A DNA stretch of 64,000 nt from positions 69,139-133,138 of the IMG/VR virus record IMGVR_UViG_3300025528_000005; one strand, given 5' to 3'. Every line of letters begins with the position of its first letter. Within the stretch, counting starts at the first letter, position 1. Position numbers and translations under genes: made by a program. Shown piece after piece: positions 5,388 to 31,396 of this stretch. The notes under the pieces are model-generated. The model saw only the letters and a program-made list of their open reading frames with translations. It was not told the origin of the DNA and did not search any database. This DNA is from a virus.

Positions 5388-7787
5388 TTAGATTACCGCG
5401 GAGGAAGTCGTGACGTTGCCCAACAGGAACACGTTGGTCCTGTCGTTGGGATCGAGATAATCGACGATCGTCCCGGTTTGGGGTTCGCCGAGATCCCGAG
5501 TGTATTTCGTATAGGTTACGTCCGGTGGAGTTCGGATACCGGTGATGCCGCCTCTCTCAAGAGCGGCGACGAAATCCGACATCAAGAACGGTGCGCCGGG
5601 CTCCAGGGAAGATAGATATTCCTGGGCTATTTGCTGAACAACACCAGCGCTCGGTCCGATACCGCCGTAACCGACGACCTCGATATCCAGCATGTGGAAG
5701 TTGAAGCCTCGAGCCAGAAGATCCGCACACAGGACGCGATTGAGTTCGTTCTCGAGGTAAGCCTGAATGCTGTCGATATAAGCGAAGTAGGAGATCTCGA
5801 AGCTCGCCGTCTTGTTAGCGTAATTCAACCCAAAGCTGATTCGGTAGGTTTGTCTGGCGCTAAACCCATAGTCATACCAAGGGATGACCGAGCGACAGGT
5901 TAGGGTTCCAGTGGCATCTTCCTCTATCTCTTCCGGAACTATGTAGGTGAATTGGTTGCCGTTGAGAACCTCTGAGATGAGCCAGCGACCATTGTAGGCC
6001 TCCGGAGTTGCTCCAGAAATGGTCACGTAACGGTTCGGTATCTGACCGTGATTAGGCAAAGTGACGGTCACCGTCGTGCCTTCGCAGGTTAGACTGAGAA
6101 TGCTCTGCGACTGCTCATAGGGGTTGGTGACTTCATACTTGATATCATGAGTGATAATCGCCTCACCTGTGGTTTCCGCCTCTGTCCAAAGAGTCGGGAC
6201 GGAGATCGTAAAGGAGCTTGGGAAGGCGACGCTCACAGGGAAGGTTCCGATAATGCGGGGATTGGTCATCCGCATATCGGTACCGCTGCCGGCCTCTGGG
6301 ATGTTCGCCGGGACTGTATAGGTCAACGTGTCCTCGTCGACGACAGTCACGACGTACTCCCCATTATAGGTAATAGGAGCAACCCCGGTGATCATGACCG
6401 GCGTTCCAGATTCAAGGCCGTGACCTTCGGAAGTGACGGTAACCGTGACGCCAGAGCAGGAAATCGCCGAAATTGGCAGCGACTGCTCCAGGCCGGAAAG
6501 CTGCACTTCGTCACCGACCGTCAGGCCGTGAGCATTCGCAGCAACGACGATGGTTGAATCTTCCGGGTGGACTTCCACCGAGGAATACTCGACAGTTGCC
6601 TGGAAGGGGATCGTATCCTCTTCCGAGCCTCCGCTAATCTCGCTTCGTCTCAGTGCATACACCGGTCCGGTGAGCTCAGCCACTCCGGATTCGTCCGTAG
6701 TTAGCTGAACGATCGACGTGGCCAGCGTGTGGTCGCAGTAGACGTCCACCATGCCACCATTGTGGATCAGCACGGGAGCCGTTACGGACTGGACCGTCGG
6801 CAGCGCCGTAACCACTCCTCCGATCGCCGGAAGCTCGTAAGTGAACGTGTTGGCGTCTAGGACAGTGATTCGATACGTGCCGTTGTAGGTCGGCGGCGAG
6901 GCATCGCTGATCAAAACCCTCTGACCGGTAAACCAGCCGTGATTTGGAAGATTAGCGGTCGCCAGGGTTCCTTCAGCCGACAAGTAGGTGAGAAGCCTGG
7001 GTTCTTCAGGATCAAAGACGGCTTTGACCTGGTCTCGGATCATCTCTGGATCGCCGTACCCGATCGGCACGACATGCTCCAGATAGTTGAACTGTTCTCG
7101 GAGGTTGGAGTCGATCGACGGGTTGTTTATCAGGTTGCGCGTCGAGATAGCGGTCTCGGCACGGGAGATGAATTGCTCGTTCGTCTCTCCAGCGATCGAC
7201 GCCTCGGTCAGATAGTTGATCTCGGCCCTAAGGAAATAGGGGTCGAAATTTGAGAAATACAGCAAGCTCCCTGAGCTCAGATTATACGACGGACCCTGTT
7301 GCTCGGCTTGCAGATCGATGTCGATGTACCACTCGTTGACAGAGGCATCGTAGCTCATTGCACTAGCCGGGATAGTCATCGACTGCTGAGGATAGAATCT
7401 CAGCGTGTTGTCCGTCGAGAAGAAGACGTTCGAAGAGATCGTAACGTTCTTCTGCCTGGCAAAGTACAGCCTGGCATTTATGACGGCGAAGGTTCCGAGA
7501 TTGCGTCTCAGGAACCAGTTAGACAGAATATCGTCGACCACCTCCTGAGGAGTGTCGTTGTTCACCCCTCGGAGCGTATTCTGTGAAAAGTAATAGTTCA
7601 GCCCCTTGTTGATCAGGGCTAAAAGAAATGCGCTCGGCCGTAGTACGAGATCCCGAAGCCCCGTCCCTTGACGGAAATCCATATCTGGGAACTGGGCCTC
7701 GAGTATCTTAAGAGCCAGCAGTTCAGCCTGGACAATCTCCTGCTGTGTGGGTTGAATACCGGGTAGAGTCGTGTATAGGCTTGCCAT
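5388..7787 (-). CDS. Baseplate wedge protein (gpJ/gp6-like) with three inserted beta-repeat modules
   Basis: N-terminal DFRQGTGLRDL, A..GET.E.F..R pattern typical of baseplate J proteins; three repeats of HG...G..V.ISxAxPxxYNGxYxV...FTY. Confidence 0.7.
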   Translation of the reverse strand: MASLYTTLPGIQPTQQEIVQAELLALKILEAQFPDMDFRQGTGLRDLVLRPSAFLLALINKGLNYYFSQNTLRGVNNDTPQEVVDDILSNWFLRRNLGTFAVINARLYFARQKNVTISSNVFFSTDNTLRFYPQQSMTIPASAMSYDASVNEWYIDIDLQAEQQGPSYNLSSGSLLYFSNFDPYFLRAEINYLTEASIAGETNEQFISRAETAISTRNLINNPSIDSNLREQFNYLEHVVPIGYGDPEMIRDQVKAVFDPEEPRLLTYLSAEGTLATANLPNHGWFTGQRVLISDASPPTYNGTYRITVLDANTFTYELPAIGGVVTALPTVQSVTAPVLIHNGGMVDVYCDHTLATSIVQLTTDESGVAELTGPVYALRRSEISGGSEEDTIPFQATVEYSSVEVHPEDSTIVVAANAHGLTVGDEVQLSGLEQSLPISAISCSGVTVTVTSEGHGLESGTPVMITGVAPITYNGEYVVTVVDEDTLTYTVPANIPEAGSGTDMRMTNPRIIGTFPVSVAFPSSFTISVPTLWTEAETTGEAIITHDIKYEVTNPYEQSQSILSLTCEGTTVTVTLPNHGQIPNRYVTISGATPEAYNGRWLISEVLNGNQFTYIVPEEIEEDATGTLTCRSVIPWYDYGFSARQTYRISFGLNYANKTASFEISYFAYIDSIQAYLENELNRVLCADLLARGFNFHMLDIEVVGYGGIGPSAGVVQQIAQEYLSSLEPGAPFLMSDFVAALERGGITGIRTPPDVTYTKYTRDLGEPQTGTIVDYLDPNDRTNVFLLGNVTTSSAVI

Positions 7788-22174: not shown

Positions 22175-22927
22175 ATGCGAGCCGTAATATCGGCAATCTA
22201 TCCTGTGCTCATCCAGCCATTCATCAGCACCGAGGAGGTCCGTTATTACATCAACGGATTCTATGTCCACAGTGATCCAAACGAAGGTCTTCGGATCGTC
22301 GCCACCGACGGTCACCGATTGGGTGTCTTCCACGACCGCGAAGGTTTGTGGGAAGGCCCGACGAACGCCGGGATGATCGTCAAGCTAAGCAAGCCTGCGC
22401 TCGACATTCTGAAGGACAAGAAGTCCAGGACGCCGCTTAAGAAGTGGCTGGTTGTTGAGGGCGACATCAAGGCTAACTCCGCGACGATCATCGAGGGGGA
22501 TGATCCTCTGGACAACCCGAGGCTTGTGGCAACATTCCACGACGTCCTCATAGATGGAACCTACCCCGATTACACCAAGGTTGTTCCTTCCATCACGAAG
22601 CGGGACTTCAAACCGGCCAGCTACAACCCGAAGTATCTCGCCGACTTCTCTCGGGTCCTGCCGAAGATGGGGGCCCGGTGCATCCGCCTTGTCTCGGAAG
22701 ACGAGGCTGGCCCATCGCTCGTTCTGACGAGCCGAGATGACTTCTTCGGTGTCCTGATGCCTATGCGGCCGGGATGGGAAGAGTCCAACTATTATCCGGA
22801 CTTCTGGACCCGCAAGCCTTCTCACAAGGGGATGAAGCTGGTCAGAGGTGGAAAGAAGAAGTCGGCTGCCTTGGAGGAGGTCGAAACCAAAGTGGCGGAA
22901 ACCAACTCTCAACCGGACGCTGCCTAG
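22175..22927 (+). CDS. DNA polymerase III beta (sliding clamp)-like protein, shortened
   Basis: E.RYYING.....LRIVATDGHRL and LIDGTYPDY..VVP are hallmark DnaN motifs; only about 200 aa are clamp-like. Confidence 0.75.
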   Translation: MRAVISAIYPVLIQPFISTEEVRYYINGFYVHSDPNEGLRIVATDGHRLGVFHDREGLWEGPTNAGMIVKLSKPALDILKDKKSRTPLKKWLVVEGDIKANSATIIEGDDPLDNPRLVATFHDVLIDGTYPDYTKVVPSITKRDFKPASYNPKYLADFSRVLPKMGARCIRLVSEDEAGPSLVLTSRDDFFGVLMPMRPGWEESNYYPDFWTRKPSHKGMKLVRGGKKKSAALEEVETKVAETNSQPDAA

Positions 22928-25644: not shown

Positions 25645-26028
25645 ATGTCTGCTTACATAGTCGAGAACGGCACTATTCAAAGAGCTCTTTACGCTCTCCA
25701 ATCTCTTCGAAGGCCGTTTTATGGCAAGGATCTCACAAAGGACGAAGACCTTGCCGAACTCGGTCAAGAGCTGTACCGGCTCAACACCAAAGCGGTGAAC
25801 GCCCGCTATCGCAGTAGACGACGGGTTCCGAAGTACGTGCACGAACCCGTCGATCCAACAACGTCGGTCATGCAGCTCTACAAATCCCTTTGCTGCCTCA
25901 TCTACCAATGCTCGGAAGACAAGGCCGACAGAACCTTCCTATACAAGGAACTGTTGCGAGCAAGGGCCGACCTGGCCGTTCGACTGCTATCCGAGACGCA
26001 GGAATATCGCGCCTGTGGCTGGTTATAA
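25645..26028 (+). CDS. Conserved phage/plasmid hypothetical protein
   Basis: MSAYIV...LN..AVNARY...KSL.CL.YQCSE pattern. Confidence 0.7.
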   Translation: MSAYIVENGTIQRALYALQSLRRPFYGKDLTKDEDLAELGQELYRLNTKAVNARYRSRRRVPKYVHEPVDPTTSVMQLYKSLCCLIYQCSEDKADRTFLYKELLRARADLAVRLLSETQEYRACGWL

Positions 26029-26110
26029 GCGTGCAATCAAACTAGGCCTTGTTACAAGGCCTTTTTTAGACGACGGCTATATTTTGTCACTTCAACAAAT
26101 TGCAAATCCT

Positions 26111-26120
26111 TGGTATAAGA
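26111..26120 (+). promoter_or_regulatory. Promoter of the Ubl cassette (TGGTATAAGA)
   Basis: Recurrent motif. Confidence 0.7.
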
Positions 26121-26197
26121 GTTGCGGACAAAGGATAGTTATAGCCGGCTATTCAGTCCTCTCTCTTTAGCCTTTTTACTAGAGGTATTGTTTTAAT

Positions 26198-26404
26198 ATG
26201 TCCAACGTTACTACGACCAAGTTCATCGTCACCTCGACCGACACCGAATACAGCATCCCTGGGAACTGGACTGCCCAGCAGATCAAGGATAACTATGCAT
26301 CCCAGGTTCCCGGTATCACCAACATGGTGGCTGAAGAAACCTACGAGGATGGCGGTGCGACCCGTCTGATCGTTTTCAAGCCGCGCACTGGCAACAAGGG
26401 CTGA
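26198..26404 (+). CDS. Ubiquitin-like protein (PRTRC protein C-like)
   Basis: 68 aa with beta-grasp-like pattern and C-terminal FKPRTGNKG; heads an E2/JAB/E1 cluster. Confidence 0.8.
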   Translation: MSNVTTTKFIVTSTDTEYSIPGNWTAQQIKDNYASQVPGITNMVAEETYEDGGATRLIVFKPRTGNKG

Positions 26405-26432
26405 TAGCTCCGAGCTACGGGCTTGAATCGTG

Positions 26433-26463
26433 AAATAGGGCGCCCTTCGGGGCGTCCTATTTT
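26433..26463 (+). terminator. Strong hairpin terminator after the Ubl gene
   Basis: AAATAGGGCGCCC-TTCG-GGGCGTCCTATTT with a UUCG loop. Confidence 0.75.
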
Positions 26464-26532
26464 GTTCGGCTTTTTTTAGTCACAGGTAGGAGCGGATTAC
26501 AAAAAGCCGAACCTCGTATTCAAGGAATCATA

Positions 26533-27453
26533 ATGCGAACAGCACTTATACCTCATGTAACGACAGGGCCACGGGCCCGAGCCATCAGGATACGGAGCGA
26601 ATGTAGTCGACGCATTCAACAGTATTGCCGAGACAGAGTTATCGAACTGAAGCTTGCCACTAAGCAGTTTTCATACGACTTCGACTTCACCTCTGGCGGC
26701 ACACCGACACGACGCTCTCTGGTACGCTTCAAGACTCTGCTTTCCCGGGCCATCGAAAAACAGCTTCCCTATGTGGAATACACTCAGAAGCCGTTTTTCG
26801 AAATACTGGGCCGATCAACTTTCTCAATCACTCTGTTATCCCGGCCAGTCCGATACTCCGGAAGCTACTATGGGTTTTCCAGGCTGGATATTACTTCTAA
26901 AAGACTGCTTTGCGAAGATAGTCGCTTTGGTAAAACCGTTGAACGTTACGTTCAATATCTCAGGTACATATGTTTGAAGCACGCCGTACCGATTTCGATC
27001 CATTCCTCTGGACATTCTCATCTCTCTGTAGAATCCAGGGCCAGATATTATGAGATTCTCAGTTCAAACTATGACGCATTAAAAACAGAGTCTCCGGAGG
27101 TACAGTACGAGGTCAAAATCATGGCTCAAATCGTGTACTGGAGTCATCTTCCGTACAACGACCTGGTTCGGGCTAATCACCCCCGTCTACTGTCGCTGGA
27201 TGAGTTCATCGCAAACCGGCTCGAGCACGAGCCGGCCAGTACGGTGTTCTCACAATCTGAGTGGCATTCGAAAAATATCGCAGATGAACCCCTCCTGAGT
27301 TCGAAGGATTTTCTAGAAGGATATAGTCGTTACTGGGTTCCAGAGAAGGTATTCTACTACCTCCCTCAGATCATATCCACTCTTCGAACTTTAACCCGTA
27401 AGACCAGCTATGTTTCTTCAGCTTTTAGCATCGGAGCTCCTGAAGGCTCCTGA
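26533..27453 (+). CDS. Hypothetical protein in the Ubl cassette
   Basis: 306 aa, aromatic-rich, no recognised motif. Confidence 0.6.
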   Translation: MRTALIPHVTTGPRARAIRIRSECSRRIQQYCRDRVIELKLATKQFSYDFDFTSGGTPTRRSLVRFKTLLSRAIEKQLPYVEYTQKPFFEILGRSTFSITLLSRPVRYSGSYYGFSRLDITSKRLLCEDSRFGKTVERYVQYLRYICLKHAVPISIHSSGHSHLSVESRARYYEILSSNYDALKTESPEVQYEVKIMAQIVYWSHLPYNDLVRANHPRLLSLDEFIANRLEHEPASTVFSQSEWHSKNIADEPLLSSKDFLEGYSRYWVPEKVFYYLPQIISTLRTLTRKTSYVSSAFSIGAPEGS

Positions 27454-27667
27454 CCTCAATTCCGACCTAGTTGATGGAGAAGCTGTAGTCTCTCGCATTC
27501 CTAGGATTCAAACTCTCGAAGATTTGGAGGTGCTTGGAAAGTACCGGCGCAGGACCTATAACAGCGAGGATTTGCGAGCGATAAACTTGCATCTCATGGA
27601 ATCGGAGTTCTTTAAAGCCAAGCACTTTCAAGGTGATGCGCTCAATTTCGAAGAGGATTTTGTATGA
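27410..27667 (+). CDS. Small hypothetical protein in the Ubl cassette
   Basis: 85 aa, overlapping both neighbours. Confidence 0.5.
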   Translation: MFLQLLASELLKAPDLNSDLVDGEAVVSRIPRIQTLEDLEVLGKYRRRTYNSEDLRAINLHLMESEFFKAKHFQGDALNFEEDFV

Positions 27668-28398
27668 GCGATATGGAAGCGATTGAAACATCGCCAATGG
27701 CGGAGGAGCCTAAGGTTGAAGTCCTGCTTCAGGATGTTCAAATCTTTACTGATCACGTCAAAGTTATTCTAAATGGCGGTGTAGAAAAGGCCATATCTTT
27801 GAATGATTTTCGGAATATCCTCAATTCCGTCATTGGTATTCACGAAGACCAAAAATTGGAAGGATTTAATCTTCCGTCCAATGTGTTCTATTTTGCCAAG
27901 TCGGGAAACGAGATTCAGCTAAGTTGCTACTATCAAGCCCGAAAGGCAGTTATCCAGTACTACGACAAAAAGATGCCCATTGTCATGCCGAACGTGATAA
28001 TCAGCCACGTTCTCGAAAGGACAGGGGAGAAGATCTGGCGAGTGCGATCATCGAAGTACTTTTGCACGGATTTCAGTGTCTCTCGATTGCCTCGGGACTT
28101 CATCAATCGACTTGATCATAGTAATCACATCTTCCTGCTACCTATGTCGAATACATATGACAATGGGAATATGTGTTATGGCGGAAATCAAATGATCAGT
28201 CGGTTCTCGGAGAACAATCTGCGTGGACTGGATTGGTACTACCAGTATATGTTCGAATCCCCTTTCAATGACGACCTTGGCGTCTATGCGATAAGAAGAT
28301 CCATGCCTCCAAAAGAGTGGTATGCACTTCTCTCGGAGCTGGCTAAAGAGGACAAGCCTTTTCCTTACGAGAAGCTCACGGGATACTCCCCGGCATAA
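27664..28398 (+). CDS. Prokaryotic E2-family enzyme (Prok-E2_D / PRTRC protein B-like)
   Basis: LLPMSNTYDNGNMCYG with candidate catalytic Cys, followed by FESPFNDD. Confidence 0.7.
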   Translation: MSDMEAIETSPMAEEPKVEVLLQDVQIFTDHVKVILNGGVEKAISLNDFRNILNSVIGIHEDQKLEGFNLPSNVFYFAKSGNEIQLSCYYQARKAVIQYYDKKMPIVMPNVIISHVLERTGEKIWRVRSSKYFCTDFSVSRLPRDFINRLDHSNHIFLLPMSNTYDNGNMCYGGNQMISRFSENNLRGLDWYYQYMFESPFNDDLGVYAIRRSMPPKEWYALLSELAKEDKPFPYEKLTGYSPA

Positions 28399-28426
28399 TA
28401 TTCAATCTATTCATTAAGGAGTTAAC

Positions 28427-29707
28427 ATGCGTGTACTAGCGCCTCATATGAGCTGCGTTGTAAACATGCCGCTCAGCGATGACGAGCCAAACGAGCTCGA
28501 ACAGGCCATCGCCGATGGCTATACTGAAATCTATGTAATTACCGCGGACGGCATCATCAAGCACCACAAGCTGCGCGGCGAGAATCGTTACATCCGAGTC
28601 AAGGTCAACAGTATCCCTGGCTTTGAAGCTCCTAAGCTTCCTCAAGCTATCAACTTCTTGCCGGCCGGCAAAATCCCCAAGGAGTTGTTCGATCAGATTC
28701 TCGCCTTCTTCTATGGTGTTATGAAGAAGAATGGCGACAAAGCTCTAGAGGCGATGGCATGGATCTGCTACAGCCAAGAGCGGGGTTATCACATTATCAT
28801 CCCTGATCAGCAGATCTCAGCAGCGTCGGTTCGTTACGACTGGTCTTCTGTTCCGGCCGGGACGTCGATCATCGTCGACATCCATTCTCACAACAACATG
28901 AACGCCTTCTTCTCAGGCACCGACAACAATGACGATCGGGCGAATATCTCGTTCTCTGGCGTGGTTGGTAAGATGAACCAAACGGTTCCCGAAACCGTAT
29001 GGCGTTTCAATTACCAGGATCGCAAGTTCGAGGCCAAATTCGAAGACATCTTCGATGTGGCACCGGTTGAAGTCCCGGACGAGTGGCTCGATAAGGTGGA
29101 TGTGTCGACTCCTCGTATCACTTATGTAGGAGGTGGAAAGTGGCCGTCCTCCACGTTGGACAAGAAAGGCCGGGCCGATCACCTGAAGCCATATCAGTTC
29201 CGCAAGAAAGAGGATCTCGAGAAAGATCTCATCAATGGCAACCGAGCAGGGCCTCAACTACAGGCTCGCAATAGGGCTTTGATGGCAACAGGTCATCTCG
29301 ATTTCGACTCTGACTTTTGGGGCATGGGAGACGAAGCCGGTATGTTGGCCAACGGCTACGTTGCCGGGGGTAAGAACCTGGGAAAAGCCGTGGGCGAGGA
29401 GGACGGAAGCAACGAGGTCGCTGACCCCTTCTCGCCTAACTTCAACGATGACGAGGCTGATCTCGACCTCTCCTTTCACCCTCGCTACGATGAGCTTGTG
29501 TGCAATCAAGGCAAGGGGGTGGCCGAAGCGTACTGCGTAATCGACCACTACATGTCGGAACTCGCCGGTCAAGATGAGCTCCTACAGGGGCTGATCTCGG
29601 ACATGTTCGATCTAAGTTCGGACTCTGCCCAGATCCGGATCTTCCGCCAGCTCTATCAGCACCTGTCTCCGTCGGCTCAAGAAAGCCTCGCTTCCAAAGG
29701 CTTCTAG
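28427..29707 (+). CDS. JAB/MPN+ metalloprotease (PRTRC protein A-like) with acidic C-terminal extension
   Basis: EAMAWI...DIHSHNNMNAFFSGTDNNDD, giving the E...HxH...S..D JAMM motif. Confidence 0.85.
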   Translation: MRVLAPHMSCVVNMPLSDDEPNELEQAIADGYTEIYVITADGIIKHHKLRGENRYIRVKVNSIPGFEAPKLPQAINFLPAGKIPKELFDQILAFFYGVMKKNGDKALEAMAWICYSQERGYHIIIPDQQISAASVRYDWSSVPAGTSIIVDIHSHNNMNAFFSGTDNNDDRANISFSGVVGKMNQTVPETVWRFNYQDRKFEAKFEDIFDVAPVEVPDEWLDKVDVSTPRITYVGGGKWPSSTLDKKGRADHLKPYQFRKKEDLEKDLINGNRAGPQLQARNRALMATGHLDFDSDFWGMGDEAGMLANGYVAGGKNLGKAVGEEDGSNEVADPFSPNFNDDEADLDLSFHPRYDELVCNQGKGVAEAYCVIDHYMSELAGQDELLQGLISDMFDLSSDSAQIRIFRQLYQHLSPSAQESLASKGF

Positions 29708-29712
29708 CTACT

Positions 29713-29743
29713 AAAGCCTCTGAATGACTCAGAGGCTTTTTTT
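29713..29743 (+). terminator. Intrinsic terminator
   Basis: AAAGCCTCTGA-ATGAC-TCAGAGGCTTTTTTT. Confidence 0.8.
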
Positions 29744-29769
29744 AGCCAGTCAAGCTAAGGCCTTGTTTT

Positions 29770-29779
29770 CGGTATAAGA
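29770..29779 (+). promoter_or_regulatory. Promoter of the E1 gene (CGGTATAAGA)
   Basis: Variant of the recurrent motif. Confidence 0.65.
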
Positions 29780-29818
29780 ACAATGTACAGGCCTGTACAT
29801 TTTCCTTAAGGAGTTTTC

Positions 29819-30919
29819 ATGTTCCGCTTTACACCTCGCACCATTCCTTCGAAGATCTTCGTTATCGGCTGCGGAGGTACGGGATCTCGTCTTGTCCCGC
29901 TTCTGACTCAGTTCATCGCTTCGATCAGCAAAGACAAGAACCCTCGAGGCTGGCTGGATGATCCGACGATCTTTCTCATCGACGATGACGTAGTCGAACA
30001 GAAGAACCTGCAACGTCAGAATTTCGTCATGGCTGACGTCGGCAAGCACAAGGCTTCGGTTCTGGCTCAACGATATGGGCGTGCTTATGGGGTCAATGTA
30101 GTCCCTGTTCTGAAGCGTGTCGTTGGCCTAAATTCTGGGGAGCTGTTCAAGGACGTAACAGGAGATCCGTCGTTCTACAATTCCCTCGTTATTATGTGTG
30201 TAGATACGGCTGATGCTAGACGGGCGATCATCAACATGGTCGACTACAACAGCTCGTCTAAAGATCTTGGCCAAGGAGCCTTCTTTATCGATGCTGGAAA
30301 CGAAGATAACTTCGGGCAAGTCCGCTTCTTCAATCACTCTGCCTGCATTCCTGGAAAAGGCTTGATGGACAGCAAGGATATACCGAAGATGTCTCCTATA
30401 GTCCTTGATCTTCCTGCCATTCCGATAGATATTGATTATTACGAAAATCTCACCGACATGCCTGGTCAAGGAAGTTGCGCGGATCTAGACCAGACTCTGG
30501 CGATCAATGCCATCATGGCGGCGGAGATCATGGGTATCGTGCAAAATTACTATTACTGCAAGCCGATGACCTACTATCAGGTCTCCCTCAGTCTGGATGG
30601 GGCCCGGTCTACGACCTACCTCACGGCCAATGAACTTCTTCGAATTAATAAAACTCAGGCGGTTTCCAGGTATGGAAAGCTTTCTCTATATAACATGTCA
30701 CTGCTGAACGTCGGTAAGTATCTAGAGAGATTCAAGACTGAGACGGAAAAAGCGTTGGCAAAGATGAACGCCACAGTGGTTGCCGAAGAGGCTATTGAAG
30801 ATGTTTCTAAAAAGACCACTGAACCGGCAAAGAGTCGGAGTCGTGAGGCAGAAGTCATAGAGGCGACCTCGATGGAATCTCTACCTTCTGAGGGAGAGAC
30901 TCTTGAGGCTCCTTTCTGA
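29819..30919 (+). CDS. ThiF/E1-like activating enzyme
   Basis: IGCGGTG, IDDDVVE.KNL.RQNF, CVD...R, IDAGN, and candidate active-site Cys in GSCAD. Confidence 0.9.
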   Translation: MFRFTPRTIPSKIFVIGCGGTGSRLVPLLTQFIASISKDKNPRGWLDDPTIFLIDDDVVEQKNLQRQNFVMADVGKHKASVLAQRYGRAYGVNVVPVLKRVVGLNSGELFKDVTGDPSFYNSLVIMCVDTADARRAIINMVDYNSSSKDLGQGAFFIDAGNEDNFGQVRFFNHSACIPGKGLMDSKDIPKMSPIVLDLPAIPIDIDYYENLTDMPGQGSCADLDQTLAINAIMAAEIMGIVQNYYYCKPMTYYQVSLSLDGARSTTYLTANELLRINKTQAVSRYGKLSLYNMSLLNVGKYLERFKTETEKALAKMNATVVAEEAIEDVSKKTTEPAKSRSREAEVIEATSMESLPSEGETLEAPF

Positions 30920-30928
30920 CGGCTAAAT

Positions 30929-30957
30929 AAAAGCCCGGTTCATAGCCGGGCTTTTTT
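30929..30957. terminator. Bidirectional intrinsic terminator
   Basis: AAAAGCCCGG-TTCATAG-CCGGGCTTTTTT. Confidence 0.8.
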
Positions 30958-30976: not shown

Positions 30977-31396
30977 CTAAGTCGTCCGTTCTCGGCTTGC
31001 TTCAGTGAGATTGTCAACGACCGCGAAGGAAGCGAGTTCGGTCCCGTCCTGTCGAAGCATGATCAACGTACCCTCTGCCTTGTTCCATTGCCAGCTGCCC
31101 AAGGCCTCGTCTTCGAGATTCCGAAGGTAGGTATAGATGGACGTTGAGACCACCTCGACCTGAGCCTGGATAGCTCCGTAAGCGTAGAGGGTGTAGGTTC
31201 CCGTCGATTGAGGCGTAAAGGTGAAGTTATAGAGTCCGTGGATTCCGACGTCTGTCACGGTGACCTCTGTCGTGGTGACAACGGCTCCATCCCTGAGTAA
31301 CACCAAGTCTGCCGGACCCTGTTCTCCGGTTTCTCCGGTCGGACTGAGGAGGGTCAGAACGACGGGAGTGTTTGCTTCTACTGTTCGATGAATCAT
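30977..31396 (-). CDS. Hypothetical virion protein (Ig-like)
   Basis: GLYNFTFTP...GTYTLY beta-sandwich pattern; last gene of a late operon. Confidence 0.55.
   Translation of the reverse strand: MIHRTVEANTPVVLTLLSPTGETGEQGPADLVLLRDGAVVTTTEVTVTDVGIHGLYNFTFTPQSTGTYTLYAYGAIQAQVEVVSTSIYTYLRNLEDEALGSWQWNKAEGTLIMLRQDGTELASFAVVDNLTEASRERTT

What the first reader, a model, noticed from the sequence alone, without database searches (positions are those of the whole stretch)
26111..30957. Complete phage-encoded ubiquitin-like conjugation cassette (Ubl, E2, JAB, E1, plus two unknown genes)
Seen: a 68 aa Ubl ending in KG, an E2-like protein with candidate Cys (SNTYDNGNMCYG), a JAB protease with intact HSH..S..D, and a ThiF/E1 with GxGGxG and SCAD. 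Known: this composition matches PRTRC-type cassettes of plasmids/ICEs, whose substrates are unknown. Bacterial Bil and CBASS Cap2/Cap3 systems use E1/E2/JAB chemistry in anti-phage defence. Inference: the phage may conjugate its own Ubl to host or virion proteins, or use the JAB to strip host defensive conjugates. The two unassigned genes (26533..27453, 27410..27667) are candidate E3/adaptors or substrates.
Basis: partly seen in the sequence, partly recalled or inferred. Interest (0 to 1): 0.8.

Follow-up and report, generated by a model that had tools for sequence, protein, structure and literature searches.

The report
Phage ubiquitin-like tagging cassette, polyubiquitin-style
A clade of large lytic-type phages, including cultured Salmonella and Vibrio phages, carries a conserved six-gene kit that almost certainly attaches a small ubiquitin-like protein to other proteins. 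It is a stripped-down, very divergent relative of the never-tested plasmid "PRTRC" cassette, and in some of these phages the tag gene is a head-to-tail repeat like eukaryotic polyubiquitin.

Summary
All six plus-strand ORFs exist as described, in a 168-kb IMG/VR phage record.

The 68-aa protein folds as a beta-grasp (AF2 pLDDT 88.7). It is a remote homologue of PRTRC protein C / Pfam Prok_Ub, with the same terminal G-x-K-G.

The E2 (Prok-E2_D), the JAB (full JAMM motif) and the E1 (ThiF) keep their active-site residues in all 17 related cassettes examined.

New points:
- The cassette is a fixed, syntenic module next to the terminase in a clade of 145-187-kb phages. This clade includes Salmonella phage Arash, where the tag gene is annotated in the wrong frame, and Vibrio phage D69.
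- The tag gene carries 1, 2, 3 or 5 tandem repeats, or short C-terminal caps, so it needs cleavage after K-G.
- The tag gene has its own conserved promoter and terminator.
- The two unknown genes evolve about twice as fast as the enzymes and match no known family.
- The JAB gene is twice split by homing-endonuclease ORFs.

ParB, PRTRC-E and PRTRC-F (alpha-hel2) are absent, so this is a variant of PRTRC rather than a member. The target and the biological role remain unknown.

This scan has already found PRTRC-like cassettes in other phages on other DNA, but none from this clade.

The parts
26084..26119 (+). Promoter-like element of the tag gene: TTCAACAA-type upstream box followed by an extended -10 box, TGGTATAAG (26111-26119).
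   Evidence: TGGTATAA occurs 6 times in the window, all on the plus strand and each upstream of a plus-strand unit (18618, 22093, 26111, 36448, 39547, 49214), against 0.59 expected. A TGGTATAA box lies upstream of the tag gene in 11 of the 13 loci listed; L014 has TGTTATAA and L016 shows none.
26126..26159 (+). Hairpin in the 5' leader of the tag mRNA (GGAC...GTCC around a TAGCCGGCTA palindrome).
   Evidence: Predicted fold; z-score is only -1.04. The sequence is conserved in L005, L006 and L008. Function unknown.
26198..26404 (+). Ubiquitin-like tag, 68 aa, single beta-grasp with a flexible tail ending R-T-G-N-K-G followed by stop.
   Evidence: AF2 with 61 sequences: pLDDT 88.7, strand-strand-helix-strand-strand. 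The fold hit list is dominated by MoaD, ubiquitin, Fubi, FAT10, ISG15, SUMO and NEDD8, with Z 4-5.3. hhalign to PRTRC_C: 96.2% probability, E 2e-9, C-termini in register. 67 relatives found in 1.84 billion representative proteins.
26430..26475 (+). Intrinsic-terminator-like hairpin (16 pairs) plus T-run directly after the tag gene.
   Evidence: Scan. A hairpin followed by a run of 6-8 T stands at the same place in all 14 loci folded, across clades.
26466..26511 (+). Second hairpin, whose 5' arm is the terminator T-run. The loop holds an invariant TAGGAGC.
   Evidence: RNAalifold on 8 loci: 16-pair helix, with double-sided compensatory changes at 5 pairs. Role unknown.
26533..27453 (+). pX, 306 aa, unknown fold. 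It is the positional equivalent of PRTRC protein F and evolves fast.
   Evidence: No Pfam, NCBIfam, PHROG or PADLOC hit. Only 2 relatives in 5.8 billion protein clusters. 36% identity where the enzymes are 61-63%. AF2 pLDDT 54.5. A gene of 199-320 aa sits at this position in the 13 distinct loci inspected.
27410..27667 (+). pY, 85 aa, acidic and unknown. It overlaps the end of pX by 44 nt, and its stop overlaps the E2 start (ATGA).
   Evidence: Conserved in the window clade. An 81-95-aa ORF overlapping pX and abutting the E2 gene is present in the 13 distinct loci inspected.
27664..28398 (+). E2-like protein (Prok-E2_D), candidate catalytic Cys171 in P-x2-N-x-Y-x5-C-x-G-x-N.
   Evidence: Pfam 25.6 bits against cut-off 25. 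Cys and motif are kept in all 12 distinct loci checked. The Cys aligns with the Cys of PRTRC_B.
28427..29707 (+). JAB/JAMM metallopeptidase with an N-terminal extra domain and a long, poorly conserved acidic C-terminal region.
   Evidence: E108, H153-x-H155, S163 and D166 give the full E...HxHx7Sx2D motif. hhalign to PRTRC_A: 99.2% probability. The HxH-x7-S-x2-D part is found intact in 15 of 17 loci and is interrupted by LAGLIDADG ORFs in the other two.
29819..30919 (+). E1-like adenylating enzyme (single ThiF domain) with conserved Cys220 (S-C-A-D-L) and a roughly 100-aa C-terminal tail.
   Evidence: GCGGTGS and NLxRQNF are kept in all 17 loci. The Asp of C-V-D is invariant in the four-sequence alignment, and these sites align with E. 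coli ThiF 1zud. hhalign to PRTRC ThiF: 99.5% probability, with Cys220 opposite its Cys. SCADL is present in all 17 loci.

Best explanation
This is an active ubiquitin-like protein-conjugation system carried as a fixed module by a clade of large, apparently virulent phages. It is a divergent, ParB-less derivative of the PRTRC / Iyer-2006 'type 6d' cassette.

Proposed mechanism:
1. The 68-aa beta-grasp tag is made from its own promoter. A hairpin terminator behind it lets only part of the transcription run on into the enzyme genes, so the tag is produced in excess.
2. In relatives where the tag is encoded as 2-5 head-to-tail copies, or with a short C-terminal cap, the JAB peptidase cuts after the invariant Lys-Gly to expose the terminal glycine.
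3. The E1 adenylates that glycine with ATP and probably takes it as a thioester on Cys220.
4. The tag passes to Cys171 of the E2 and from there to amino groups of target proteins.
5. The fast-evolving pX and pY act as specificity or adaptor factors.
6. In this phage the tag is already made in mature form, so the intact JAB most likely also removes or edits conjugates.

Shown here: fold, homology, conserved active sites, repeat architecture, synteny, and the conserved promoter and terminator.

Inferred, not shown: every chemical step, the role of pX and pY, and the target.

My leaning on the target is host or defence proteins during establishment of infection (about 45%), phage or virion proteins (about 30%), or something else (about 25%).
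For: Tag:
- Beta-grasp model, pLDDT 88.7, with Ubl and MoaD folds filling the hit list.
- G65, K67 and G68 are invariant over 61 family members.
- The family is homologous to PRTRC_C / Prok_Ub, whose members also end in G-[TA]-K-G, one of them with a 3-residue cap.

Polyubiquitin-like genes:
- Two repeats in P0011-15, P0032, L020, L021 and L023-25.
- Three repeats in Vibrio phage D69.
- Five repeats in P0052/L014.

Enzymes:
- Complete JAMM motif in the window; its HxH-x7-S-x2-D part is intact in 15 of 17 loci.
- E1 P-loop and NLxRQNF arginine-finger motif in all 17 cassettes; the Mg-binding Asp is invariant in the four-sequence alignment and aligns with ThiF.
- E1 Cys220 is kept in all 17 cassettes, and the E2 Cys171 motif in all 12 distinct loci checked.

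Synteny and regulation:
- Order tag-pX-pY-E2-JAB-E1 is identical in all 17 loci and matches PRTRC C-F-B-A-ThiF.
- The promoter box and the terminator hairpin around the tag gene are conserved across clades whose tags are only 32-50% identical.
- The pY stop overlaps the E2 start (ATGA) in the window, L005 and L006.

Other:
- LAGLIDADG ORFs sit inside the JAMM-coding DNA in two loci. Homing elements usually target conserved, needed genes.
- Contigs of two metatranscriptome libraries cover the cassette at 99% identity or more. This is weak evidence, because DNA carry-over is not excluded.
- The GenBank record of phage Arash labels the E1 and E2 homologues 'structural protein', from particle mass spectrometry. 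That shows at least that they are made.
Against: - No biochemical data exist for any PRTRC-type system, so every step is by analogy.
- The E2 assignment is weak: Pfam is 0.6 bits above the cut-off and hhalign to PRTRC_B gives only 10% probability.
- The equivalence of E1 Cys220 to the ThiF/MoeB catalytic Cys was not shown; the ThiF alignment stops before it.
- Some bacterial systems (Bub) use Ser/oxyester chemistry or lack an E1 cysteine (PMC11601596), so thioester relay is not guaranteed.
- The co-fold of E1 with the tag gave no verdict.
- The Arash 'virion' proteome lists 116 proteins, including ribonucleotide reductases, so it does not prove packaging.
- The phage has its own RNA polymerase beta subunit and sigma factors. 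The promoter class therefore does not fix the time of expression.
Confidence: 0.68

Rival explanations
1. Virion-directed use. The tag is covalently attached in stoichiometric amounts to phage structural or assembly proteins, as decoration, cross-link or assembly control, and the cassette is a morphogenesis module.
For: - In every locus with flanks, the cassette lies between the terminase and a minus-strand block that contains homologues of Arash proteins labelled structural.
- Multi-copy tag genes, and a separate high-output transcription unit for the tag, suggest bulk demand.
- The Arash E1 and E2 homologues are labelled structural.
- Precedent from established knowledge: lambda-like tail assembly protein I is a Ubl paired with a JAB (PMC1779556).
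Against: - The tag promoter belongs to the same class as plus-strand accessory units (reverse-transcriptase operon, HNH endonuclease, clamp-like gene). It is not found before the minus-strand structural operons.
- PRTRC relatives live on plasmids and ICEs, which have no virions.
- The Arash particle preparation was not clean.
Confidence: 0.25
2. Counter-defence by deconjugation or decoy. The main role is for the JAB to strip host Bil or CBASS (Cap2) conjugates, or for the tag and E1 to jam such host systems.
For: - Bil and type II CBASS use E1/E2/JAB chemistry against phages (PMC11601596, PMC10097602).
- pX and pY evolve fast, as expected in an arms race.
Against: - A peptidase alone would be enough for stripping, yet all six genes are retained in all 17 loci.
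- The JAB co-varies with a tag that has its own distinctive T-G-x-K-G tail, and it must process that tag's repeats.
- PADLOC Bil and CBASS models do not match the JAB, the E2 or the tag.
Confidence: 0.07
3. Sulfur-carrier system. The small protein is a ThiS/MoaD-type carrier that E1 converts to a thiocarboxylate, for thiolation of a cofactor, tRNA or DNA rather than for protein tagging.
For: - MoaD chains are among the best fold matches (Z 5.3 and 4.8).
- The E1 is a single ThiF-type domain whose closest solved relative by sequence is E. coli ThiF.
- Capped carriers trimmed by JAB are known from established knowledge (CysO/Mec, QbsE/QbsD).
Against: - A conserved E2-fold protein with an invariant Cys has no role in sulfur relay.
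- There is no rhodanese, cysteine desulfurase or sulfur-acceptor enzyme in the cassette.
- Genes with 2-5 tandem tag copies fit a consumed modifier better than a recycled carrier.
Confidence: 0.06
4. Partition or maintenance module, as the name 'ParB/ThiF partitioning cassette' used for PRTRC in a temperate Burkholderia phage suggests (PMC13366799).
For: Canonical PRTRC is linked to a ParB-family gene.
Against: - No PRTRC-type ParB anywhere in this 168-kb record.
- Arash has no lysogeny genes.
- No relative of this E2 was found in 185,579 species genomes, so there is no sign of a resident prophage or plasmid state.
Confidence: 0.02

Closest known systems
PRTRC system (ParB-Related, ThiF-Related Cassette; NCBIfam TIGR03734-03742), which is operon type 6d of Iyer, Burroughs & Aravind 2006 (PMC1779556). 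Example: Aromatoleum aromaticum EbN1 plasmid 1.
   Same: - Four homologous components in the same order: Prok_Ub tag ending G-x-K-G, Prok-E2_D E2 with the Cys in register, JAB with full JAMM motif, and a single-domain ThiF E1 with the S-C motif.
- A 300-360-aa gene sits between the tag and the E2.
- Carried by mobile elements, and function never tested.
   Different: - No ParB, no PRTRC-E and no alpha-hel2 protein F. pX and pY are unrelated by profile comparison.
- There is an extra small gene, pY.
- The JAB is 426 aa with a long acidic tail, against about 220 aa.
- All scores are below NCBIfam equivalog cut-offs.
- The tag gene is often multi-copy.
- The host element is a large lytic-type phage.
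Canonical PRTRC in temperate phages (B. gladioli phage AB2, BgVeeders33; PMC13366799), and the phage PRTRC-like cassettes noted earlier in this scan.
   Same: A phage-borne Ubl/E2/JAB/E1 set of unknown function.
   Different: - Those cassettes keep ParB and proteins E and F, and sit in early or lysogeny-linked operons of small temperate phages.
- This one is a ParB-less core beside the terminase of 145-187-kb phages.
- BgVeeders33 E1 is only 24.5% identical.
- No look-alike of this clade is in the scan's records.
Bil (BilABCD) anti-phage ubiquitination system (PMC10557695, PMC11601596).
   Same: Separate tag, E2, JAB and E1 genes, with the tag conjugated through a C-terminal glycine. It is the precedent that such bacterial systems make real isopeptide conjugates.
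   Different: [quoted passage not shown]
- Here the E1 is a single ThiF domain and the tag a single beta-grasp.
- No PADLOC match apart from the E1 nucleotide loop.
- Bil is host-encoded defence, whereas this is phage-encoded.
Bub (6E / DUF6527) operons (PMC11601596).
   Same: Tags with 1-3 beta-grasp domains, and a JAB that cleaves a tag precursor to expose the reactive C-terminus.
   Different: - Bub uses fused proteins (Ubl-E2, JAB-E1 or E2-E1), a catalytic Ser in the E2, an E1 without a catalytic Cys, and the BubE serine protease.
- None of these features is seen here.
Eukaryotic polyubiquitin and ubiquitin-fusion genes.
   Same: Head-to-tail tag repeats with no spacer or a short one, a terminal cap residue, and one case of a tag fused to a longer C-terminal protein. 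All of these need cleavage after the terminal Gly.
   Different: - An analogy in gene architecture only.
- The tail is T-G-x-K-G rather than L-R-G-G.
- The processing enzyme is expected to be a JAMM peptidase encoded in the same cassette.

Membership tests
PRTRC system / Iyer 2006 type 6d | Small Prok_Ub (PRTRC_C) beta-grasp tag with conserved C-terminal glycine. | tested here: met
   The window protein alone gives no Pfam or NCBIfam hit. Its family does: 19 of 61 members hit TIGR03738 and 14 of 61 hit PF14454. hhalign gives 96.2% probability, E 2e-9, end to end. The model is a beta-grasp.
PRTRC system / Iyer 2006 type 6d | Prok-E2_D (PRTRC_B) E2-fold protein with conserved Cys. | tested here: inconclusive
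   Pfam 25.6 bits against cut-off 25. TIGR03737 15.2 bits against cut-off 131. hhalign gives 10% probability but 188 co-linear columns with the Cys opposite Cys. The E2 fold itself was not modelled.
PRTRC system / Iyer 2006 type 6d | JAB peptidase with JAB-N (DUF2016) domain (PRTRC_A). | tested here: inconclusive
   The JAB part is clearly met: PF14464 32.9 bits, TIGR03735 E 1.6e-20 though below cut-off, hhalign 99.2%. DUF2016 is not detected by Pfam. The hhalign alignment reaches back only to PRTRC_A residue 31.
PRTRC system / Iyer 2006 type 6d | PRTRC-type ThiF E1. | tested here: met
   Best NCBIfam hit is TIGR03736 at 95.8 bits, below the equivalog cut-off of 144.75. hhalign gives 99.5% probability over 227 columns.
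PRTRC system / Iyer 2006 type 6d | Alpha-helical protein F (Pfam alpha-hel2) between the tag and the E2. | tested here: not met
   No PF14456 match in the whole record. hhalign of pX and pY against four PRTRC_F proteins gives probability of 0.5% or less. Only the position is shared.
PRTRC system / Iyer 2006 type 6d | Linked PRTRC ParB-family protein and protein E. | tested here: not met
   No TIGR03734 match in the 168-kb record. The genes upstream of the tag give no ParB or PRTRC_E hit.
Bil (BilABCD) | [quoted passage not shown] | tested here: not met
   The E1 is 366 aa with one ThiF domain at residues 11-263. The tag is a single 68-aa beta-grasp. PADLOC matches only the E1 nucleotide loop, to CBASS E1-E2 models.
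Bub (6E / DUF6527) | Fused Ubl-E2 / JAB-E1 or E2-E1 proteins, plus the DUF6527 (BubE) protease. | tested here: not met
   All genes are separate and none of the six proteins gives a DUF6527 hit. The E2 has a conserved Cys, not Ser.
Type II CBASS Cap2/Cap3 | E2-E1 fusion (Cap2) next to a CD-NTase, with the CD-NTase itself as the conjugated substrate. | tested here: not met
   The E2 and E1 are separate genes. There is no CD-NTase in the cassette, and only weak PADLOC E1-E2 hits over residues 11-126 of the E1.
ThiS/MoaD-ThiF/MoeB sulfur relay | Carrier and adenylyltransferase working with sulfurtransferase or acceptor enzymes; no E2. | tested here: not met
   The E1 adenylation residues align with ThiF. 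However, an E2-like gene is present in all loci and no sulfur-handling gene is present. The chemistry itself is not testable here.

The most novel reading that the evidence does not exclude
These large phages run their own 'ubiquitylation' during infection. A polyubiquitin-like precursor is cut into tags that are attached in bulk to specific proteins. The targets are either host defence or takeover proteins chosen by the fast-evolving pX/pY pair, or the phage's own virion proteins as a covalent coat. This would be the first function for the whole PRTRC family and the first viral Ubl-conjugation pathway in bacteria.
Probability: 0.3. Interest if true: 0.9.

Novelty: new variant of a known kind. 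Interest (0 to 1): 0.6.

Why it matters
Bacterial ubiquitin-like conjugation has so far been shown experimentally only for host defence systems (type II CBASS, Bil, Bub). The PRTRC / type-6d family has been predicted since 2006 and is widespread on plasmids, ICEs and phages, but it has no known function or target.

This clade offers a compact six-gene version in cultured phages with tractable laboratory hosts:
- Salmonella phage Arash on S. Typhimurium ATCC 14028.
- Vibrio phages D69, D148 and D181.

It also offers natural precursor substrates (2-5 tag repeats) for the peptidase, and existing particle proteomics for Arash. Those data were searched without the true tag ORF, because the deposited annotation has it in the wrong frame.

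If the phage tags host or virion proteins, that would add a new layer to phage-host conflict and give a first handle on PRTRC biology.

Tried and rejected
- **Co-fold of E1 (residues 1-300) with the tag:** score 0.45, best control 0.27, so below the required margin. The verdict was 'no answer' and it is not used as evidence either way.
- **AF2 of pX with 5 sequences:** pLDDT 54.5. The exhaustive PDB fold search gave best Z 5.7, at noise level. No fold is assigned.
- **Other searches for pX:** ESM Atlas gave no usable hit and the search for homologous proteins gave only 2 relatives.
- **pX and pY as diverged PRTRC_F:** rejected for lack of any profile signal. There are only marginal links between the pX/pY of different phage clades (window clade against L016: E 3e-4 and 9e-4). 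Homology of the positional equivalents is therefore likely but unproven.
- **pX-pY fusion by programmed frameshift:** rejected. The overlap is in the +1 frame in some clades and in the -1 frame in others.
- **His155 of the E2 as a catalytic residue:** rejected. It is Gln in L016 and Arg in L021.
- **Searches that found nothing or little:**
  - PHROGs gave only two weak matches to families of unknown function, for the JAB and the E1 (E about 1e-3).
  - Megablast against 50,697 phage records gave no match.
  - Single-sequence PDB searches gave nothing useful.
  - A pattern scan of 185,579 species genomes for the E2 found none. This method can miss distant copies.
- **Sigma-70 consensus scan:** it missed the tag promoter. 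The promoter was found by aligning upstream regions.
- **Arash paper numbering:** the Table 2 protein numbers could not be mapped reliably onto the GenBank gp numbers. I do not claim which cassette proteins were detected beyond the GenBank 'structural protein' labels.
- **RNA-library contigs:** they show presence only. Depth differences were not used.

Full report
**1. The observation**

- Pfam places three of them in Prok-E2_D (25.6 bits, cut-off 25), Prok-JAB (32.9 bits) and ThiF (51.1 bits).
- The best NCBIfam models are PRTRC_B, PRTRC_A and PRTRC_ThiF. All three score below the curated equivalog cut-offs.
- The 68-aa, 306-aa and 85-aa proteins hit nothing in Pfam, NCBIfam, PHROGs or PADLOC.

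The window lies in a 168,216-bp IMG/VR virus record estimated 92% complete. It carries a large terminase, a tape-measure-like gene, a tail-fibre-like gene and a head-protease gene. The record also encodes an RNA polymerase beta subunit and two sigma-70-like proteins.

**2. The tag**

A profile of the 68-aa protein and six close relatives, searched against 1.84 billion representative proteins, found 67 relatives.

- Nearly all are 62-73 aa and end in [R/K]-T-G-[T/N/S]-K-G.
- In a 61-sequence alignment, G65, K67 and G68 are invariant.

AlphaFold2 on that alignment gives pLDDT 88.7, a strand-strand-helix-strand-strand topology and a flexible seven-residue tail. An exhaustive structural comparison gives modest Z scores (5.4 at most), as expected for 68 residues. 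The hit list, though, is filled by MoaD, ubiquitin, Fubi, FAT10, ISG15, SUMO and NEDD8, alongside the GB1 and protein L domains of the same strand-strand-helix-strand-strand topology.

The window protein itself matches no family model, but its relatives do:

- 19 of 61 family members hit TIGR03738 (PRTRC_C).
- 14 of 61 hit Pfam Prok_Ub.
- A profile-profile comparison with plasmid PRTRC_C proteins gives 96.2% probability, aligned end to end with R-T-G-N-K-G opposite A-A-G-T-K-G.

So the refutation criterion 'not a beta-grasp' is not met.

**3. Polyubiquitin-like genes**

The most telling new feature is the gene architecture of the family.

- Six of the 67 representative proteins (P0011-15, P0032) and five of the 17 loci carry two head-to-tail tag copies.
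- Vibrio phage D69 carries three.
- P0052/L014 carries five. Each copy ends in T-G-T-K-G, and the last is followed by one to five extra residues.
- One member carries a 134-residue C-terminal extension.

These architectures only make sense if a peptidase cuts after Lys-Gly to expose the glycine. The only peptidase in the cassette is the JAB.

**4. The enzymes**

| Enzyme | Conserved features |
|---|---|
| JAB | E108, H153-x-H155, S163, D166, which is the complete JAMM signature |
| E1 | GCGGTGS, N-L-x-R-Q-N-F and the Asp of C-V-D, aligned with the ATP/Mg site of E. coli ThiF |
| E1 | Cys220 in S-C-A-D-L, opposite the conserved Cys of PRTRC ThiF |
| E2 | P-x2-N-x-Y-x5-C-x-G-x-N and S-P-F-N-x-D |

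- The E2 Cys is kept in all 12 distinct loci checked. An upstream His is not: it is Gln or Arg in two loci.
- The E1 P-loop, N-L-x-R-Q-N-F and S-C-A-D-L motifs are intact in all 17 related cassettes. The HxH-x7-S-x2-D part of the JAMM motif is intact in 15 of them. The C-V-D Asp is invariant in the four-sequence alignment.
- The other two have the JAB gene interrupted, exactly within the JAMM-coding DNA, by LAGLIDADG endonuclease ORFs at two different positions.

**5. A conserved module of a phage clade**

Relatives were collected in three ways: tblastn against GenBank phages, look-ups of tag-encoding contigs, and a pattern scan of IMG/VR.

In all 17 loci the order is tag, pX (199-320 aa), pY (81-95 aa), E2, JAB, E1. 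pY overlaps the end of pX, and in the window, L005 and L006 its stop overlaps the E2 start.

- Contigs reach 145-187 kb.
- Where flanks are available, the cassette is transcribed divergently from the terminase and runs towards a minus-strand block.
- In Arash, that block's members are labelled structural.

Salmonella phage Arash has the whole cassette, with E1 32.9% identical. Its deposited annotation calls a 72-aa ORF in another frame. The true 66-aa tag ORF (L002:107-307, ending R-R-T-G-T-K-G) is not annotated. Arash has no lysogeny genes.

No relative of the E2 was found in one genome each of 185,579 prokaryotic species. This was a pattern-based scan, so it is not proof of absence.

**6. 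Relation to PRTRC**

On plasmids the order is ParB, E, C, F, B, A, ThiF. By Pfam these correspond to C = Prok_Ub, F = alpha-hel2, B = Prok-E2_D, A = DUF2016 + Prok-JAB, and ThiF.

- The phage cassette shares C, B, A and ThiF in the same order.
- It has no ParB and no alpha-hel2 anywhere in the record.
- pX and pY show no profile similarity to protein F.

It is therefore a divergent variant of the PRTRC core, not a member in the NCBIfam sense. It is not Bil (single-domain E1, single beta-grasp tag), not Bub (no fusions, no DUF6527, Cys rather than Ser) and not Cap2/Cap3 (PMC11601596, PMC10557695).

**7. The two unknown genes**

| Compared with the window | tag | E2 | JAB | E1 | pY | pX |
|---|---|---|---|---|---|---|
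| L005, % identity | 78 | 61 | 61 | 63 | 47 | 36 |
| L020, % identity | 58 | 48 | 49 | 47 | 35 | 27 |

In the Arash and Vibrio clades the positional equivalents are no longer recognisable by pairwise comparison and are only marginally linked by profiles.

The region 26001-28000 has the lowest G+C of the window, 0.468. A fixed position combined with fast divergence fits specificity factors, adaptors or substrates in an arms race. This is an inference.

**8. Regulation**

- Upstream of the tag gene, 11 of the 13 loci listed have a TGGTATAA box, preceded in most by a TCAACAA-like box. L014 has TGTTATAA and L016 has none.
- In the window the TGGTATAA motif occurs six times, against 0.59 expected. 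All six are on the plus strand and each precedes a plus-strand unit: a clamp-like gene block, the tag, the reverse-transcriptase operon noted by an earlier report, a 260-aa gene, an HNH endonuclease and a small ORF.
- None of the six precedes the minus-strand structural operons.
- Directly after the tag gene, all 14 loci folded have a strong hairpin followed by a run of 6-8 T.
- In the window clade and the L020-L026 group (8 loci) a second hairpin, using the T-run as one arm, shows compensatory changes at five pairs.

The tag is therefore a separate, probably high-output unit with read-through into the enzyme genes. Because the phage encodes its own polymerase subunit and sigma factors, the time of expression cannot be deduced.

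Contigs from two metatranscriptome libraries cover the cassette. One of them runs from 26189, nine bases before the tag's ATG, through the terminator to 27316. DNA carry-over cannot be excluded.

**9. Interpretation**

The best-supported reading is a working Ubl-conjugation pathway:

1. JAB matures, and probably also removes, the tag.
2. E1 adenylates Gly68 and likely forms a Cys220 thioester.
3. E2 Cys171 carries the tag.
4. pX and pY direct it to targets.

Confidence is about 0.68. No step has been shown for any PRTRC-type system.

The target is open:

- Placement beside morphogenesis genes and the bulk supply of tag speak for virion proteins.
- The promoter class, the presence of PRTRC relatives on plasmids and ICEs, and the fast-evolving accessory genes speak for host-directed or establishment functions.
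- A pure sulfur-carrier role, a pure deconjugase role and a partition role are each unlikely, for the reasons given under the rival explanations.

**10. Novelty**

- Phage-borne canonical PRTRC was recorded in 2026 for a temperate Burkholderia phage and called a 'partitioning cassette' of unstudied function (PMC13366799).
- This scan has noted PRTRC-like cassettes in many other phages, but none resembling this clade and none with multi-copy tags.
- Full-text searches found no paper on a phage-encoded ubiquitin-like conjugation system of this kind.

What is new here:

- The clade, with cultured members.
- The ParB/E/F-less architecture with pX and pY.
- The polyubiquitin-like tag genes.
- The conserved tag transcription unit.
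- The mis-annotated Arash tag gene.

Noticed in passing
L002:102-320 (Salmonella phage Arash, OQ632216, gp251c): The deposited CDS gp251c (72 aa, hydrophobic nonsense) is in the wrong frame. The real gene is the 66-aa tag ORF at L002:107-307, ending RRTGTKG. Any proteomic search made against the deposited annotation could not have found the tag.
   Followed up: yes
L003:5929-6942 (Vibrio phage D69, OZ195729): The E1 reading frame is open from 5929, overlapping the JAB stop at 5954, and encodes the GCGGTGS loop. The first ATG/GTG/TTG is only at 6187, where the deposited CDS starts, so that CDS lacks the ATP loop. The true start must be non-canonical, or E1 is made by coupling or frameshifting from the JAB gene.
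   Followed up: partly
L006:7579-10078 and L016:10250-12891: The JAB gene is split inside the JAMM motif, after HSHNTMG in L006 and after DIH in L016, by two different LAGLIDADG endonuclease ORFs. These are probably group I introns or inteins. L014 has an HNH gene between the JAB and E1 genes. L020-L027 have a gap of roughly 540-930 nt between the JAB and E1 reading frames.
   Followed up: partly
window 18618, 22093, 26111, 36448, 39547, 49214: The promoter-like box TGGTATAAG occurs six times, all on the plus strand (0.59 expected), each before a plus-strand unit. These units include the reverse-transcriptase operon and an HNH endonuclease gene. It appears to be a distinct promoter class of this phage.
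   Followed up: partly
window 26466-26511 and the same place in L005, L006, L008, L020-L022, L026: There is a second hairpin behind the tag terminator. The T-run pairs with a downstream A-run, the loop has an invariant TAGGAGC, and five pairs show compensatory changes. It may affect read-through or RNA stability.
   Followed up: partly
window 26001-28000: This stretch has the lowest G+C of the whole window (0.468 against 0.50-0.575 elsewhere) and covers the tag, pX and pY.
   Followed up: no
window 22175-22927: The first gene of the plus-strand block upstream of the cassette has a short match to the central domain of the DNA polymerase III beta clamp (27.5 bits, cut-off 27). L005 has the same gene, followed by three DUF8296 genes.
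   Followed up: no
window 30977-31396 (-): The minus-strand gene that converges on the E1 gene appears by eye to share a C-terminal ..WQW.K..G.L.M....G.E.A.F.V.D......RER.. stretch with Arash gp245. gp245 is labelled a structural protein in the GenBank record and sits at the same place after the Arash cassette.
   Followed up: no
E1 and JAB C-termini (window 30620-30919; 29120-29707): Both enzymes carry long, poorly conserved acidic tails. The E1 tail ends in a conserved [D/E]-x-P-F (EAPF, DFPF, DIPF). The JAB ends in a conserved helical segment. These may be docking motifs.
   Followed up: no
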